NCBI RefSeq assembly: GCF_003018255.1
Contig: NZ_CP027440.1
Length of the DNA: 64,000 nt
Source of the DNA: Escherichia coli
GTDB lineage: Bacteria > Pseudomonadota > Gammaproteobacteria > Enterobacterales > Enterobacteriaceae
Reading direction: 5' to 3' (one strand)
Positions within the stretch are counted from its first letter, which is position 1; each line of letters begins with the position of its first letter. The notes beneath the pieces are model-generated. The model saw nothing but the letters and a program-made list of their open reading frames with translations. It was not told the origin of the DNA and searched no databases. The translations under genes and the position numbers were made by a program. Of this stretch, positions 20,171 to 42,456 are shown in pieces.

Positions 20171-23100
20171 TTAACCGATCGTCATTAAACTGGCGTTACC
20201 GCCAGCAGCAGCGGTATTCACACTCAGCGAACGCTCGATATACAGCCGTTCCAGAAGGATATTGCTTTCGCCACGGGCAAAACCCTGCACCGAAACAATT
20301 GCACCATCCCGCGCGGCAACGGCTTCACACAATGCGCGAAGCTGATCCGAATCACCGTGGAAGATCACCGCATCAAATGGTTGAGCGGTTATATTTTCCG
20401 CTTTCGCCAGTTGAATACGTTCGCTGACTGCCGATGGCAATGCCTTCACTAACTGACGATGCAGCGCATCATCCGGCCACAGCACCTGGCTACCCACCGC
20501 CAGCACGGCGGCGAGCTGAGTCAGCGCATCCTGTTCATCATCCGCAATACACAACACGCGCTCACGCGGCAGCAGCGTCCAGGTGTTGCGTTCACCCGTC
20601 GGCCCTGGCAACAATCGTTGTGTTCCTGCCTGCGCCAACTCGCCATATTGCGTACATAACGCCTGCAATTCTGGACGGTTTGCCGCCCATTCCCGCAGTG
20701 CATTTAGCGGCTGAGTCAATGCGGCTTTCAACTGCGCATCGACCGGATACTCCGCATCCTGACGCGCGAGCGTCACTGCCAGCGCACTTTCCGGGCGATT
20801 CGCCAGCAGACGGTAGAGATAGAGCGGACCGCCTGCTTTCGGCCCGGTACCGGACAACCCTTCGCCGCCGAACGGTTGCACCCCAACCACCGCGCCCACC
20901 ATATTACGGTTAACGTACAGATTACCGACCTGGGCCGAGCCAGTGACCTGGGCAATGGTTTCATCAATACGCGTATGAACGCCAAGCGTCAGACCATAAC
21001 CGGAAGCGTTAATCTGCTCGATCAGCGCCGGCAGCTGGTTACGGTTGTAACGCACCACATGCAACACCGGACCAAAGACCTCTTTTTGTAATTCGGCAAA
21101 GTCATCCAGTTCGATCAGCGTCGGAGCGACAAAGGTGCCGCTTTGCCATTCACGGGCATCTTCGCTGTTTTCCCGCACCGCCTGGAACACCTGACGGCCT
21201 TTACTACGCATGGTCTGAATATGACGCTCGATATTGGCTTTCGCTTCGCTATCAATCACCGGACCGATATCGGTGGTCAGGCGACCCGGATTACCCATCC
21301 GGCATTCGGCCATTGCGCCGCGCAGCATTTTCAGCGTGTGGCCGGCAATCTCATCTTGCAGGCACAGCACGCGCAGTGCCGAACAACGCTGACCTGCACT
21401 GTCGAACGCCGAGGCCAGCACATCTATTACGACTTGTTCGGTCAGTGCTGAAGAATCGACAATCATCGCGTTCATGCCGCCGGTTTCCGCAATGAGCGGA
21501 ATTGGGCGACCCTGAGCGTCCAGGCGGCTGGCGATATTGCGTTGCAGTAACGTAGCGACTTCGGTTGAACCGGTAAACATCACCCCGCGCACGCGTTCAT
21601 CACCCGTCAGTTGCGCGCCCACGGTTTCACCCCGACCTGGCAGCAATTGCACCACGCCTGGCGGTACACCCGCTTCCAGCAAAATGGCGATCCCTTGCGC
21701 GGCAATCAGCGGCGTTTGTTCTGCCGGTTTTGCCAGTACGCTGTTACCTGCCGCCAGTGCGGCAGCGATCTGCCCGGTGAAAATCGCCAGCGGGAAGTTC
21801 CACGGGCTGATACATACCACAGGCCCTAATGGACGATGGGTTTCGTTAGCGAAATCATCCCGCACCTGTCCGGCGTAGTAGTGGAGAAAATCGACCGCTT
21901 CACGCACTTCGGCAATGGCGTTACTGAAGGTTTTTCCGGCTTCACGCACCAGAATACCAATCAGTTGCTGCATCTGGCTTTCCATTAGCACGGCAGCGCG
22001 ATGCAAAATCGCCGCGCGTTCAGCCGGAGGAGTGGCAAACCAGATTGGCGCATTATTAACCGCACTTTCCAGCGCTTGTTCTACTTCACGCGGCGTGGCT
22101 TCACGCACAAAGCCCACAATATCTTTCGGTTCCGCAGGGTTAATAACGGGCGACATCTCACCTGCCGCTACCGGTTGTTCCAGCATTGGCAAGGCCTGCC
22201 ATTTTTGCAGTGCACTATTGAGCAGGGCAGAGGAGAGCGAGGCCAGACGGTGTTCGTTAGCGAGATCCAGCCCTGCCGAGTTGTCGCGCCCGTGACCGTA
22301 AAGATCGCGCGGCAGGGGAATTTTCGGATGCGGTAATCCAGTTTGCCCTTCCTGTTGCGCCAGTTTTTCTACAGCAGTGACCGGATCGGCAACCAGTTCA
22401 TCCAGTGGCAAAGAGGTGTCGGCAATACGGTTAACAAACGAGGTGTTAGCACCGTTTTCCAGCAGGCGACGCACCAGATACGCCAGCAGCGTTTCATGTG
22501 TGCCAACCGGGGCATAAATACGACACGGACGGTTAAGTTTGCCGTCGGCAACTTTCCCGGTGACCTGCTCATACAGTGGCTCGCCCATACCATGCAGGCA
22601 CTGGAATTCGTACTGACCCGGGTAGTAGTTCTGACCCGCCAGTTGATAAATTGCCGCCAGCGTATGGGCGTTATGCGTTGCGAACTGCGGGTAGATTAGA
22701 TTCGGCACCGCCAGCAGCTTTTTCGCACAGGCGAGATATGAAACGTCGGTATACACCTTGCGGGTATAAACCGGATAACCTTCAAGGCCGTCCATCTGCG
22801 CGCGCTTGATTTCACTATCCCAGTACGCGCCTTTCACCAGGCGAATCATCAGACGGCGACGGCTGCGGGTGGCGAGATCAATCAGGTAATCAATCACCGG
22901 TGGGCAGCGTTTTTGATAAGCCTGAATAACAAAACCGATGCCGTTCCAGCCTGCCAGTTCCGGCTCGAAACAGAGTTTTTCCAGCAGATCGAGGGAGATC
23001 TCCAGACGATCGGCCTCTTCGGCATCGATGTTAATACCAATATCGTACTGACGCGCCAGCAGGGTGAGTGATTTCAGACGTGGGTAAAGCTCTTCCATTA

Positions 23101-24133
23101 CCCGGTCATACTGGGCGCGGCTGTAACGCGGATGCAGCGCCGACAGCTTGATTGAAATGCCCGGACCTTCATAGATGCCACGACCATTGGACGCTTTACC
23201 AATGGCGTGAATCGCCTGCTGATAGGAAACCATATACGCCTGTGCATCTGCGGCGGTCAGCGCGGCTTCGCCCAGCATATCGTAGGAGTAACGGAAACCT
23301 TTCTCTTCCAGCTTGCGTGCATTGGCTAACGCTTCTGCAATGGTTTCACCCGTGACGAACTGCTCGCCCATCAGGCGCATCGCCATATCCACACCTTTGC
23401 GGATCAGCGGTTCACCGCTCTTACCGATAATGCGGTTCAGCGAGCGGGAGAGGCTGGCTTCGTTATGGGTGGAAACCAGTTTGCCGGTAAACAGCAGCCC
23501 CCAGGTGGCGGCATTAACAAACAACGACGGGCTACGACCAATGTGTGACTGCCAGTTACCGTTGCTGATTTTGTCGCGAATTAACGCATCACGGGTGGCT
23601 TTGTCGGGAATACGCAACAACGCTTCTGCCAGACACATCAGCGCCACGCCTTCCTGCGATGACAACGAAAACTCCTGCAATAACCCCTGAACCATACCTG
23701 CGCGACCACTGGCGTTTTTTTGATTACGCAGTTTATCGGCCAGTTGATACGCCAGTTTGTGCGCCTGTTCAGCAACTGGCTGCGGCAGGCGAGCTTGTTC
23801 CAGCAGCATCGAAACCGCTTCGGTTTCCGGACGGCGATAGGCAGCGGTGATCGCGGCGCGGGAAACCGACTGGGGCAAAATTTGCTCGGCAAAGTCGAGG
23901 AAAGGCTGGTGTGGTTCCTCTGCCGGAGTCGGTGCTTCATCGCTCTCATTGGCAGCGCCAGAAAGCAGCGCAGGTAGCTCCGGCAGAGTATCGCTGTTTT
24001 CCAGTTGTTCAAGATAAGAAAAAATCGCCTGTTTAATTAACCAGTGTGGCGTGCGATCGATACGTGTCGCGGCAGACTTAATACGCTCACGCGTCGCGTC
24101 GTCCAGCTTAACCCCCATGGTGGTGGTTCCCAT
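20171..24133 (-). CDS. putA: bifunctional proline dehydrogenase / P5C dehydrogenase and transcriptional repressor PutA (1320 aa)
   Basis: Track ORF trimmed to ATG at 24133 (MGTTTMGVKLDDATRERIK, ribbon-helix-helix N-terminus); 1320 aa. Confidence 0.93.
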   Translation of the reverse strand: MGTTTMGVKLDDATRERIKSAATRIDRTPHWLIKQAIFSYLEQLENSDTLPELPALLSGAANESDEAPTPAEEPHQPFLDFAEQILPQSVSRAAITAAYRRPETEAVSMLLEQARLPQPVAEQAHKLAYQLADKLRNQKNASGRAGMVQGLLQEFSLSSQEGVALMCLAEALLRIPDKATRDALIRDKISNGNWQSHIGRSPSLFVNAATWGLLFTGKLVSTHNEASLSRSLNRIIGKSGEPLIRKGVDMAMRLMGEQFVTGETIAEALANARKLEEKGFRYSYDMLGEAALTAADAQAYMVSYQQAIHAIGKASNGRGIYEGPGISIKLSALHPRYSRAQYDRVMEELYPRLKSLTLLARQYDIGINIDAEEADRLEISLDLLEKLCFEPELAGWNGIGFVIQAYQKRCPPVIDYLIDLATRSRRRLMIRLVKGAYWDSEIKRAQMDGLEGYPVYTRKVYTDVSYLACAKKLLAVPNLIYPQFATHNAHTLAAIYQLAGQNYYPGQYEFQCLHGMGEPLYEQVTGKVADGKLNRPCRIYAPVGTHETLLAYLVRRLLENGANTSFVNRIADTSLPLDELVADPVTAVEKLAQQEGQTGLPHPKIPLPRDLYGHGRDNSAGLDLANEHRLASLSSALLNSALQKWQALPMLEQPVAAGEMSPVINPAEPKDIVGFVREATPREVEQALESAVNNAPIWFATPPAERAAILHRAAVLMESQMQQLIGILVREAGKTFSNAIAEVREAVDFLHYYAGQVRDDFANETHRPLGPVVCISPWNFPLAIFTGQIAAALAAGNSVLAKPAEQTPLIAAQGIAILLEAGVPPGVVQLLPGRGETVGAQLTGDERVRGVMFTGSTEVATLLQRNIASRLDAQGRPIPLIAETGGMNAMIVDSSALTEQVVIDVLASAFDSAGQRCSALRVLCLQDEIAGHTLKMLRGAMAECRMGNPGRLTTDIGPVIDSEAKANIERHIQTMRSKGRQVFQAVRENSEDAREWQSGTFVAPTLIELDDFAELQKEVFGPVLHVVRYNRNQLPALIEQINASGYGLTLGVHTRIDETIAQVTGSAQVGNLYVNRNMVGAVVGVQPFGGEGLSGTGPKAGGPLYLYRLLANRPESALAVTLARQDAEYPVDAQLKAALTQPLNALREWAANRPELQALCTQYGELAQAGTQRLLPGPTGERNTWTLLPRERVLCIADDEQDALTQLAAVLAVGSQVLWPDDALHRQLVKALPSAVSERIQLAKAENITAQPFDAVIFHGDSDQLRALCEAVAARDGAIVSVQGFARGESNILLERLYIERSLSVNTAAAGGNASLMTIG

Positions 24134-24157
24134 GCCATTACTCCTGTTGTTCTGAAA

Positions 24158-24368
24158 GGTGCAACTTAACGTTATCGTGAAATATCCATGATGTTGCAAC
24201 TTTGTGCAACTGTGTTAAATGTGACCTGCGTAGCAAGCTTAAAAATGAATGAAATGTTAATAAACGAAATCGATATGACAGGGATTAAAAAAATAACTCA
24301 GACTTTTTCTCTGCGGCAGTTAACATTTTTGAAAGGTGCAACCGCAAAAAATGTGAGAGAGTGCAACC
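24158..24368. promoter_or_regulatory. put control region with five PutA operator hexamers (GTTGCA / TGCAAC)
   Basis: TGCAAC at 24160-24165, 24195-24200, 24205-24210, 24338-24343, 24363-24368 in the divergent putA-putP intergenic region. Confidence 0.7.
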
Positions 24369-24555
24369 TGATGAAAAATAGTGTCGCTGAGCACTAAAAT
24401 TTAATGTAAATGGTGTGTTAAATCGATTGTGAATAACCAGCGCTTCCGGCAGGATACGGTCGCCCTGGTAAAACATAAACTCTGTTACCCCGTTCCGGTG
24501 GCAGATATAACGGCAAGTTTCGACATTGCCGATAATAATTTTTTGGAGACTTTAG

Positions 24556-26064
<1,509 letters not shown>

Positions 26065-41800: not shown

Positions 41801-42355
41801 ATGAATGAGTTTTCTATCCTCTGTCGTGTGCTGGGTTCGCTCTATTACCGCCAACCGCAAGATCCTTTACTGGTGCCGTTGTTTACCCTGATTCGTGAGG
41901 GGAAACTGGCTGCGAACTGGCCACTGGAGCAGGATGAGTTACTGACGCGTTTACAGAAAAGCTGTGATATGACGCAAGTCTCTGCCGATTACAATGCGTT
42001 GTTTATCGGCGATGAATGTGCTGTGCCGCCATATCGTAGCGCATGGGTTGAGGGCGCAACGGAAGCGGAAGTGCGCGCTTTTCTTTCCGAACGAGGGATG
42101 CCACTAGCGGATACGCCAGCCGATCACATCGGCACATTGCTGCTTGCGGCTTCCTGGCTGGAAGATCAGTCAACGGAAGATGAGAGCGAAGCACTGGAAA
42201 CACTGTTCAGTGAGTATCTGTTACCCTGGTGTGGTGCGTTCCTTGGCAAAGTGGAGGCCCATGCAACTACGCCTTTCTGGCGCACCATGGCACCGCTAAC
42301 CCGCGATGCTATTAATGCAATGTGGGACGAGCTGGAAGAAGATTCTGAAGAGTAA
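41801..42355 (+). CDS. ycdY: TorD/DmsD-family chaperone YcdY (184 aa)
   Basis: 184-aa ORF MNEFSILCRVLGSLYYRQPQDPLLVPLF. Confidence 0.9.
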   Translation: MNEFSILCRVLGSLYYRQPQDPLLVPLFTLIREGKLAANWPLEQDELLTRLQKSCDMTQVSADYNALFIGDECAVPPYRSAWVEGATEAEVRAFLSERGMPLADTPADHIGTLLLAASWLEDQSTEDESEALETLFSEYLLPWCGAFLGKVEAHATTPFWRTMAPLTRDAINAMWDELEEDSEE

Positions 42356-42456
42356 ATGTGATCTGCATCACTCATAACTGCAACGGGTAATTTGTTGTTG
42401 CATAAAATGTGTGCTCGATCTCATTCATGGCCGCGTTTTCTGCTATCATGCGCGGC

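What the first reader, a model, noticed from the sequence alone, without database searches (positions are those of the whole stretch)
24158..24368. Cluster of five TGCAAC (GTTGCA) PutA operator hexamers in the put control region
Five hexamers are spread over about 210 bp of the putA-putP divergent region. Three sit close to the putA start (24160-24210), including a palindromic gttgcaac, and two lie near the putP side (24338-24368), consistent with PutA autorepression of both promoters.
Basis: partly seen in the sequence, partly recalled or inferred. Interest (0 to 1): 0.25.

Follow-up and report, generated by a model that had tools for sequence, protein, structure and literature searches.

The report
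Known PutA operators of E. coli put region
The five TGCAAC/GTTGCA hexamers are real, far above chance, and are the already published binding sites through which the E. coli proline enzyme PutA shuts off its own gene and the proline transporter gene, so the finding is correct but ordinary.

Summary
TGCAAC occurs on the + strand at 24160, 24195, 24205, 24337 and 24362, and 24193-24200 is the palindrome GTTGCAAC. All five lie in the 422-bp spacer between putA (20171-24133, -) and putP (24556-26064, +) of an E. coli chromosome. Local shuffles give 0.38 sites on average, and 5 or more in 2 of 20,000.

The adjacent PutA is full length. Its first 52 residues are identical to the crystallised PutA DNA-binding domain (PDB 2GPE, 2RBF). 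The DNA listed for 2RBF, cGGTTGCACc, is the reverse complement of window 24335-24344. Genomic SELEX found PutA bound only at this spacer. So these are the known PutA operators: already known, low interest.

What I add:
- Four hexamers are fixed in position across 80 Enterobacterales loci. The one nearest putA (24160) is present in about 99% of E. coli genomes but absent from E. albertii and the other genera.
- The two "putP-side" sites lie at the middle of the spacer. They are about 95-125 bp upstream of the only strongly mapped putP start (24462) and inside the small gene ymdG, so simple occlusion of that promoter is unlikely.
- The putP leader carries a covariation-supported hairpin that has no Rfam match.

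The parts
20171..24133 (-). putA, trifunctional PutA (1320 aa): repressor, proline dehydrogenase and P5C dehydrogenase
   Evidence: The longest ORF runs 20171-24199. The real ATG is at 24133, from the sequence. NF008772 matches residues 1-1320 at 2654 bits. RefSeq annotates the same CDS.
23978..24133 (-). Codons 1-52 of PutA, the ribbon-helix-helix DNA-binding domain
   Evidence: Identical to PDB 2gpe and 2rbf chains over residues 1-52. The beta-strand TTMGVKLD, which includes Lys9, is at least 95% conserved in 77 Enterobacterales PutAs.
24160..24165 (-). Operator nearest putA ('O5', numbering recalled from Zhou 2008): aAGTTGCACc in putA sense, 27-32 nt upstream of the putA ATG
   Evidence: Exact hexamer. 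The 35-mer 24154-24188 is 100% identical in 5372 of 5426 E. coli genomes. The site is absent from E. albertii and 77 other loci.
24193..24200 (.). Operator 'O4', the perfect palindrome GTTGCAAC
   Evidence: Matches on both strands. Invariant in 18 genera. The block ATGTTGCAACTTTGTGCAACC is at least 90% conserved in 80 of 80 loci.
24205..24210 (-). Operator 'O3', 10 bp centre-to-centre from O4; overlaps the inferred putA -35
   Evidence: The adjacent base 24211 is polymorphic (T/C) among E. coli strains.
24337..24342 (-). Operator 'O2'; with its flanks it equals the DNA of the PutA52 co-crystal 2RBF
   Evidence: The reverse complement of 24335-24344 is cGGTTGCACc, as listed for 2rbf in PMC4655474. 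Nearly invariant across genera, with 2 exceptions among 18.
24362..24367 (-). Operator 'O1', 25 bp centre-to-centre from O2
   Evidence: GTGAGnGAGTGCAACCT is invariant or nearly so in 18 genera. The O2-O1 spacing is kept in 52 of the 57 loci in which both hexamers are exact.
24181..24209 (-). Inferred putA core promoter: -35 TTGCAC (24204-24209), 17-bp spacer containing O4, -10 GATATT (24181-24186), start near 24174
   Evidence: Inference from the sequence and from conservation of AATATC at 90% or more in 18 genera. It was not picked up by the consensus scan, and I found no TSS data for putA.
24275..24397 (+). ymdG, a 40-aa small protein gene that contains O2 and O1
   Evidence: The translation MTGIKKITQTFSLRQLTFLKGATAKNVRECNLMKNSVAEH lies within the 69-aa ORF. 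It is identical to YmdG in PMC6001520, K-12 coordinates 1079024-1079146. PGAP annotates the 69-aa version as hypothetical. E. albertii carries a 1-nt deletion in it.
24427..24462 (+). Main mapped putP promoter: -35 TTGTGA (24427-24432), -10 CAGGAT (24450-24455), TSS G24462 (94-nt leader)
   Evidence: TSS at NC_000913.2 1078434, with 5' UTR 94 nt and upstream sequence ...TTGTGAATAACCAGCGCTTCCGGCAGGATACGGTCG (PMC3415461 supplement). The same position is the strongest + strand Cappable-seq TSS. Both hexamer blocks are conserved. The hexamer assignment is my inference.
24482..24504 (+). Conserved hairpin in the putP 5' leader: 8-bp stem and 7-nt loop; the octamer CGTTCCGG (loop plus closing G-G) is invariant
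   Evidence: Across 50 distinct sequences, 88% of cells are paired against 30-46% when the partner is slid. There are 110 both-sides-changed cells, 6 of 8 pairs are compensatory, and 0 of 500 shuffles reach the score. RNAalifold predicts the same hairpin. No Rfam match at E<=1.
24556..26064 (+). putP, sodium/proline symporter
   Evidence: NF011948 at 1138 bits; RefSeq annotation.

Best explanation
The region is the put control region of E. coli, and the five GTTGCA hexamers are the operators of the autorepressor PutA.

How it works:
- PutA dimerises through its N-terminal ribbon-helix-helix domain. The paired beta-strands of one dimer read one hexamer plus a few flanking bases.
- When proline is scarce, PutA is cytoplasmic and occupies the operators.
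- The three putA-proximal sites cover the inferred putA -35 (O3), the spacer (O4) and the early transcribed region (O5). Together they would exclude or block RNA polymerase.
- The two central sites (O2, O1) are needed to repress putP.
- When proline is oxidised the flavin is reduced and PutA moves to the membrane. This depletes the DNA-bound pool and de-represses both genes.

Shown here: the sites, their non-random clustering and conservation, the identity of the repressor domain, and the identity of O2 with crystallised DNA.
Taken from the literature: binding, repression and the membrane switch.
Inferred: the position of the putA promoter and the way O1 and O2 act on putP.
For: - Five exact sites in one orientation, strongly non-random.
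- The flanking genes are putA and putP.
- The RHH domain is identical to PDB 2GPE and 2RBF.
- The 2RBF DNA, cGGTTGCACc, matches 24335-24344.
- gSELEX gives a single PutA peak, at the putA/putP spacer (PMC8249747).
- Repression of putA and putP, and the redox-driven switch from DNA to membrane with a Kd of about 45 nM, are described in PMC5293562 and PMC5879082.
- O1-O4 and their spacings (10 bp, about 132 bp, 25 bp) are conserved across 80 Enterobacterales loci, while the sequence between them is free to vary.
- The DNA-reading beta-strand is conserved in the same genomes.
Against: - I could not read the primary paper (Zhou et al. 2008, PMC2665032). The operator numbering and the '3 for putA, 2 for putP' assignment therefore rest on my memory of its abstract.
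- O5 is not conserved outside E. coli, so its contribution cannot be supported by phylogeny.
- O1 and O2 lie about 95-125 bp upstream of the dominant mapped putP TSS. Occlusion of that promoter is therefore not supported.
- O3 and O4 resemble a -35 element (TTGCAA, TTGCAC), so part of their conservation could be due to promoter function.
Confidence: 0.95

Rival explanations
1. The hexamers are a chance cluster in an AT-rich spacer and have no function.
For: GTTGCA is not enriched in the window overall: 53 observed against 55.8 expected. Clusters of 3 occur by chance elsewhere, for example at 42262-42402.
Against: Shuffles of the spacer give 5 or more sites in 2 of 20,000. Whole-window shuffles give such a cluster in 2 of 1,500. 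All five sites share one orientation. Four are positionally conserved in 80 loci from many genera, with about 40-fold enrichment over the flanks.
Confidence: 0.01
2. The conserved hexamers are mainly promoter or activator elements, or a coding constraint of ymdG, and not PutA sites. O3 and O4 would be -35-like TTGCAA/TTGCAC. O1 abuts a conserved AAATGTGA motif that resembles a CRP half-site.
For: O3 and O4 overlap the inferred -35 and spacer of the putA promoter. Conservation around O1 (GTGAGnGAGTGCAACCT) extends beyond the roughly 9 bp that one PutA dimer contacts. O1 and O2 lie inside the ymdG reading frame.
Against: The same hexamer recurs five times, which no single promoter element explains. 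O2 matches the DNA co-crystallised with PutA. gSELEX maps PutA to this spacer. ymdG is not conserved: E. albertii has a frameshift and the 24260-24320 region is rich in indels, whereas O1 and O2 are conserved. Dual use as both operator and -35 is compatible with the main explanation.
Confidence: 0.04
3. Only four sites (O1-O4) are the working system. The 24160 site (O5) is a recent E. coli-specific addition of little or no regulatory weight.
For: O5 is absent from E. albertii and from 77 other loci. Its 13-bp context TGAAAGGTGCAAC is an exact copy of the O2 context, which suggests a recent small conversion or duplication.
Against: It is fixed in about 99% of 5,426 E. coli genomes. It lies between the inferred putA start and the Shine-Dalgarno sequence, a good roadblock position. 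As I recall Zhou 2008, it was one of three sites needed for full putA repression. Other lineages carry their own extra hexamers near putA, at 36 or 94-99 nt upstream, which suggests recurrent selection for a third site.
Confidence: 0.2

Closest known systems
E. coli K-12 put control region, PutA operators 1-5 (Zhou et al. 2008, J Mol Biol 381:174; PDB 2RBF)
   Same: Same species, same spacer, same five GTTGCA hexamers. A strain with K-12-like coordinates (strain LIM) differs from the window at only 5 spacer positions, none inside a hexamer. The O2 flanks equal the 2RBF DNA. The repressor domain is identical.
   Different: Only strain-level SNPs. The base next to O3 (24211) is T here and C in the K-12-like strain, as it is in most other genera.
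Salmonella put control region (Hahn et al. 1988; Ostrovsky de Spicer, O'Brien and Maloy 1991), as cited in PMC5879082 and PMC8871633
   Same: Divergent putA/putP. The O4/O3 pair and the O2/O1 pair sit at the same distances (64/74 and 204/229 nt from the putA ATG).
   Different: There is no hexamer at the O5 position. Instead an exact hexamer in the opposite orientation lies 99 nt upstream of putA, where E. coli has the one-mismatch GTAGCA at 24230.
Pseudomonas putida PutA45 RHH domain and its DNA complex (PDB 2JXG, 2JXH, 2JXI)
   Same: A homologous RHH domain (E = 2e-20 against the window's PutA 1-45). It is an autorepressor of divergent put genes (PMC8871633).
   Different: I did not examine the Pseudomonas spacer. 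That its motif is also GTTGCA is my recollection and was not tested here.
Other ribbon-helix-helix repressors with repeated short operators (MetJ, Arc, CopG, NikR)
   Same: A beta-sheet reads a short repeated motif, and several dimers bind per control region.
   Different: In PutA the RHH domain is fused to a 1,300-residue membrane-associating enzyme. The signal is relocation to the membrane rather than a corepressor (PMC5293562).

Membership tests
PutA operator set of an enterobacterial put control region | Exact GTTGCA hexamers, several per region | tested here: met
   Five exact sites in one orientation, one of them the palindrome GTTGCAAC.
PutA operator set of an enterobacterial put control region | Located in the spacer between divergently transcribed putA and putP | tested here: met
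   putA 20171-24133 (-) and putP 24556-26064 (+), by NCBIfam equivalog models and RefSeq annotation. All sites lie within 24134-24555.
PutA operator set of an enterobacterial put control region | The cognate PutA carries the N-terminal ribbon-helix-helix domain (type C, trifunctional) | tested here: met
   NF008772 trifunctional model matches at full length. Residues 1-52 are identical to PDB 2gpe and 2rbf.
PutA operator set of an enterobacterial put control region | Clustering beyond what composition predicts | tested here: met
   shuffles; 8.8 per kb against 0.2 per kb.
PutA operator set of an enterobacterial put control region | Sites conserved in related genomes that encode an RHH-PutA | tested here: met
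   O1-O4 are conserved in position in 80 loci. O5 is not: it is specific to E. coli.
PutA operator set of an enterobacterial put control region | Direct binding of PutA to the sites, and loss of repression when they are mutated | not testable with these tools
   Literature only. The 2RBF DNA equals O2 (PMC4655474). gSELEX gives a single peak at this spacer (PMC8249747). EMSA with 420-bp put control DNA gives a Kd of about 45 nM (PMC5293562). The per-site gel shifts and reporter assays of Zhou 2008 could not be read.
PutA operator set of an enterobacterial put control region | Operators overlap or adjoin the regulated promoters | tested here: inconclusive
   On the putA side, overlap with an inferred -35/-10 is plausible but no TSS data were found. 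On the putP side, the dominant mapped TSS (24462) is about 95-125 bp downstream of O1 and O2.

The most novel reading that the evidence does not exclude
The put operator set may be less uniform than the textbook picture suggests.

(a) O5 would be a young operator specific to the E. coli lineage. It would have been created by copying the 13-bp context of O2 into the putA leader, tightening autorepression in this species only.

(b) O1 and O2 sit inside the translated small ORF ymdG and about 95-125 bp upstream of the only strongly mapped putP start. They would then repress putP not by occluding that promoter but in one of two ways: by road-blocking an upstream, proline- and CRP-dependent ymdG-putP transcript, or by forming a looped complex with O3-O5.

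Neither point is excluded by my evidence. As far as I could see in the papers I could read, neither is stated there.
Probability: 0.3. Interest if true: 0.3.

Novelty: already known. Interest (0 to 1): 0.1.

Why it matters
For the scan, it shows that the first-stage reader can recognise a real, experimentally defined operator array from raw sequence. Biologically nothing new is established about PutA itself. The small increments would interest people who work on proline utilisation, but they do not change the accepted model. Those increments are: which of the five sites are ancient and which is specific to E. coli; the distance of O1 and O2 from the mapped putP start; their overlap with ymdG; and a structured putP leader.

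Tried and rejected
- **Chance cluster:** rejected by shuffles and conservation.
- **ymdG coding constraint as the reason O1 and O2 are conserved:** rejected. ymdG is frameshifted in E. albertii and its 5' half is rich in indels across genera.
- **The conserved block GGCAGGATACGG (24447-24458) as a CsrA-type GGA hairpin in the putP leader:** rejected. The mapped TSS is at 24462, so the block is promoter DNA: the -10 CAGGAT and its surroundings.
- **Long-range pairing CGGCAG (24447-24452) with TTGCCG (24526-24531), proposed by RNAalifold:** not supported. There are no compensatory changes and U-U mismatches occur. Its 5' arm is also upstream of the TSS.
- **Rfam scan of 24000-24700:** no match at E<=1.
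- **Consensus promoter scan:** found only one + strand candidate (24371-24400). It is not conserved and does not match the mapped TSS.
- **Primary literature:** Zhou 2008 (PMC2665032) and three related PutA papers or reviews (PMC2664619, PMC3715380, PMC5650515) are not held. Nor are PMC3234827, PMC207177 and PMC4288677. Full-text searches for GTTGCA together with PutA gave only PMC4655474.
- **A minus-strand TSS for putA:** not found. The Cappable-seq file is truncated, Kim 2012 lists none, and the Conway 2014 supplements are not held.

Full report
**What is there.** The window is E. coli chromosome. The 422-bp stretch 24134-24555 is 100% identical to strain 104 and is present in 5,420 of 5,426 complete E. 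coli genomes. To its left, on the minus strand, lies putA. The longest ORF runs to 24199, but the real start is the ATG at 24133, giving 1,320 aa. NCBIfam's equivalog for the trifunctional regulator/proline dehydrogenase/P5C dehydrogenase matches over the full length at 2,654 bits. To its right lies putP (24556-26064, NF011948). RefSeq annotates both genes the same way.

**The observation.** TGCAAC occurs on the + strand at 24160, 24195, 24205, 24337 and 24362, which is GTTGCA in the putA sense. GTTGCA on the + strand at 24193 makes 24193-24200 the palindrome GTTGCAAC.

The hexamer is not over-represented in the window as a whole (53 observed, 55.8 expected). The cluster itself is far from chance:
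- The background rate predicts 0.16 sites per 210 bp (Poisson P for 6 or more = 2e-8).
- Dinucleotide-preserving shuffles of the spacer average 0.38 sites. They reach 5 in 2 of 20,000 and never reach 6.
- Five non-overlapping sites within 210 bp anywhere in a shuffled 64-kb window arose in 2 of 1,500 trials.
- All five sites point the same way.

**Identity with the known operators.** PutA residues 1-52 encoded here are identical to the crystallised ribbon-helix-helix domain (PDB 2GPE, 2RBF, 2AY0) and homologous to P. putida PutA45 (2JXG). PMC4655474 tabulates the DNA contacted in 2RBF as cGGTTGCACc, citing Zhou et al. 2008. That string is the reverse complement of window 24335-24344, the 24337 site with its flanks.

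Three papers describe PutA as binding operators between putA and putP and repressing both genes:
- PMC5879082 gives the basic model.
- PMC5293562 adds that PutA dimerises through the RHH domain and binds 420-bp put control DNA with a Kd of about 45 nM. It also reports that proline reduction of the flavin drives PutA to the membrane while lowering DNA affinity only about two-fold.
- PMC8249747 reports by genomic SELEX that this spacer is PutA's only target in the K-12 genome.

I could not open Zhou et al. 2008 itself. From memory, its abstract reports five operators with the motif GTTGCA, three critical for putA repression and two for putP. The numbering O1-O5 that I use (O1 = 24362 through O5 = 24160) is also recalled, anchored only on O2 being the crystallised site.

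**Comparative test.** One scan of GTDB species genomes with PutA residues 1-330 returned 80 Enterobacterales loci, from Escherichia to Yersinia, Serratia, Pantoea and Hafnia. All have divergent putA and putP with spacers of 375-700 bp.

In the putA-sense orientation each spacer holds 3-5 exact hexamers: 56 loci have 4, 14 have 3 and 11 have 5. That is 8.8 per kb, against 0.20 per kb in 512 kb of flanking sequence. The sites fall into two pairs. One is a proximal pair 10 bp apart, at 61/71 nt from the ATG in E. coli. The other is a distal pair 25 bp apart, about 132 bp further upstream.

In an 18-genus alignment the blocks ATGTTGCAACTTTGTGCAAC and GTGAGnGAGTGCAACC are invariant and GGTGCAACC is nearly so. 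The sequence between them varies freely, and mean column identity is 64%. Consensus over all 80 loci agrees. The DNA-reading strand of PutA (TTMGVKLD, including Lys9) is at least 95% conserved in the same genomes. This is strong phylogenetic footprinting for O1-O4.

**The odd one out.** The site nearest putA (24160, 'O5') is found only in the E. coli loci. E. albertii has TAAAGGTATAGC where E. coli has TGAAAGGTGCAAC, and other genera show no similarity there. Within E. coli it is fixed: the 35-mer 24154-24188 is 100% identical in 5,372 of 5,426 genomes, and five divergent strains keep all five hexamers.

Its 13-bp context TGAAAGGTGCAAC (24153-24165) is an exact copy of the O2 context (24330-24342). 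Seven extra identical flanking bases are unlikely by chance (about 6e-5). This suggests a small conversion or duplication in the E. coli lineage, or strong convergence on the high-affinity flanks.

Other lineages carry their own extra hexamers near putA. Three loci have one at 36 nt. Others have one at 94-99 nt, in either orientation, including Salmonella and E. albertii. At that second position E. coli has the one-mismatch GTAGCA at 24230.

**Geometry and mechanism.** On the putA side the best promoter candidate is -35 TTGCAC (24204-24209, inside O3), a 17-bp spacer containing O4, and -10 GATATT (24181-24186). Its complement AATATC is at least 90% conserved. This predicts a start near 24174 and puts O5 at about +9 to +15. 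That is an inference. The simple consensus scan did not report it, and I found no putA TSS data.

On the putP side two independent genome-wide maps place the dominant start at NC_000913.2 1078434, which is window G24462, with a 94-nt leader. These are Kim et al. 2012 (PMC3415461 supplement) and Cappable-seq. Cappable-seq also shows weak starts at 24420, 24476 and 24546. The conserved blocks TTGTGA (24427-24432) and CAGGAT (24450-24455) fit this promoter's -35 and -10.

O1 and O2 therefore lie about 95-125 bp upstream of the main mapped start, at the centre of the spacer. 'Near the putP side' overstates their proximity, and occlusion of that promoter is unlikely.

Both data sets come from cells in which put was probably not induced. 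An inducible promoter closer to, or upstream of, O1 and O2 therefore remains possible. Supporting this, O2 and O1 lie inside ymdG (24275-24397), a 40-aa protein detected by epitope tagging, whose published sequence matches the window exactly (PMC6001520). Some transcript must therefore start upstream of 24275 and read through both operators toward putP. Roadblock or looping mechanisms are open. I did not resolve this.

**Side observations.**
- **Leader hairpin.** The putP leader contains a hairpin, 24482-24489 paired with 24497-24504. The octamer CGTTCCGG is invariant and the arms covary. In 50 distinct sequences 88% of cells pair, against 30-46% with slid partners. There are 110 both-sides-changed cells, 6 of 8 pairs are compensatory, and 0 of 500 shuffles reach the score. 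RNAalifold finds the same hairpin.
- **Context of the hairpin.** Rfam has no match. A mapped RNA 3' end at K-12 1079260, which is window 24511, lies 7 nt downstream of it (PMC7815308 supplement). A C/A-rich tract precedes it. GcvB regulation of putP has been suggested in Salmonella (PMC9299463).
- **Second hairpin.** A second, weaker hairpin (24511-24516 with 24526-24531) shows compensatory changes by eye.
- **Natural deletion.** Strain 2013C-3492 has a 177-bp deletion exactly between the two 13-mers, removing O4, O3 and the inferred putA promoter.

**Verdict.** The element is already known. Interest is low. The residual value lies in the conservation map (four ancient sites and one E. coli-specific site), the unresolved putP-side geometry, and the structured putP leader noticed in passing.

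Noticed in passing
window 24482-24504 (+), putP 5' leader: A hairpin with the invariant octamer CGTTCCGG and covarying 8-bp arms, seen across Enterobacterales. 88% of cells pair against 30-46% for slid controls, and 6 of 8 pairs show compensatory changes. There is no Rfam family. A published RNA 3' end (K-12 1079260, window 24511) lies 7 nt downstream. A C/A-rich tract (24470-24481) precedes it, and GcvB control of putP has been suggested in Salmonella. It may be an undescribed cis-regulatory RNA element.
   Followed up: partly
window 24275-24397 (+): The small-protein gene ymdG (40 aa, exact match to PMC6001520) lies inside the put control region and contains operators O2 and O1. PGAP annotates a 69-aa 'hypothetical protein' at 24188-24397 in the same frame. 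The ORF is frameshifted in E. albertii and is not conserved in other genera.
   Followed up: partly
window 24153-24165 and 24330-24342; locus L086: An exact 13-bp direct repeat, TGAAAGGTGCAAC, flanks O5 and O2. E. coli strain 2013C-3492 carries a 177-bp deletion exactly between the two copies. It leaves a 245-bp spacer with two hexamers and removes O4, O3 and the inferred putA promoter.
   Followed up: partly
window 24427-24462 (+): The dominant mapped putP TSS (NC_000913.2 1078434) corresponds to G24462. The strongly conserved blocks TTGTGA and GGCAGGATACGG are its likely -35 and -10 regions. Conservation of the whole GCTTCCGGCAGGATACGGTCGCC block is stronger than a -10 alone would need, so another factor may bind there.
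   Followed up: partly
window 24217-24224 and 24349-24356 (+): Two conserved AAATGTGA motifs resemble CRP half-sites. The first belongs to AAATGTGAcctgcgTAGCA. The second abuts O1 (AAATGTGAgagagTGCAAC), so CRP and PutA could compete there. They were identified by eye from alignment A1 and not tested.
   Followed up: no
window 24211: The base immediately 3' of O3 on the + strand is polymorphic in E. coli. It is T in this window and C in strains B95, LIM (K-12-like coordinates) and RIVM_C029670, as in most other genera. Flanking bases are reported to tune PutA affinity (my recollection of Zhou 2008), so this could be a strain-level difference in O3 strength.
   Followed up: no
E. coli genome search results: Seven matches to the put control region are on records typed as plasmids, and a few genomes hold two copies. 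I did not examine them.
   Followed up: no
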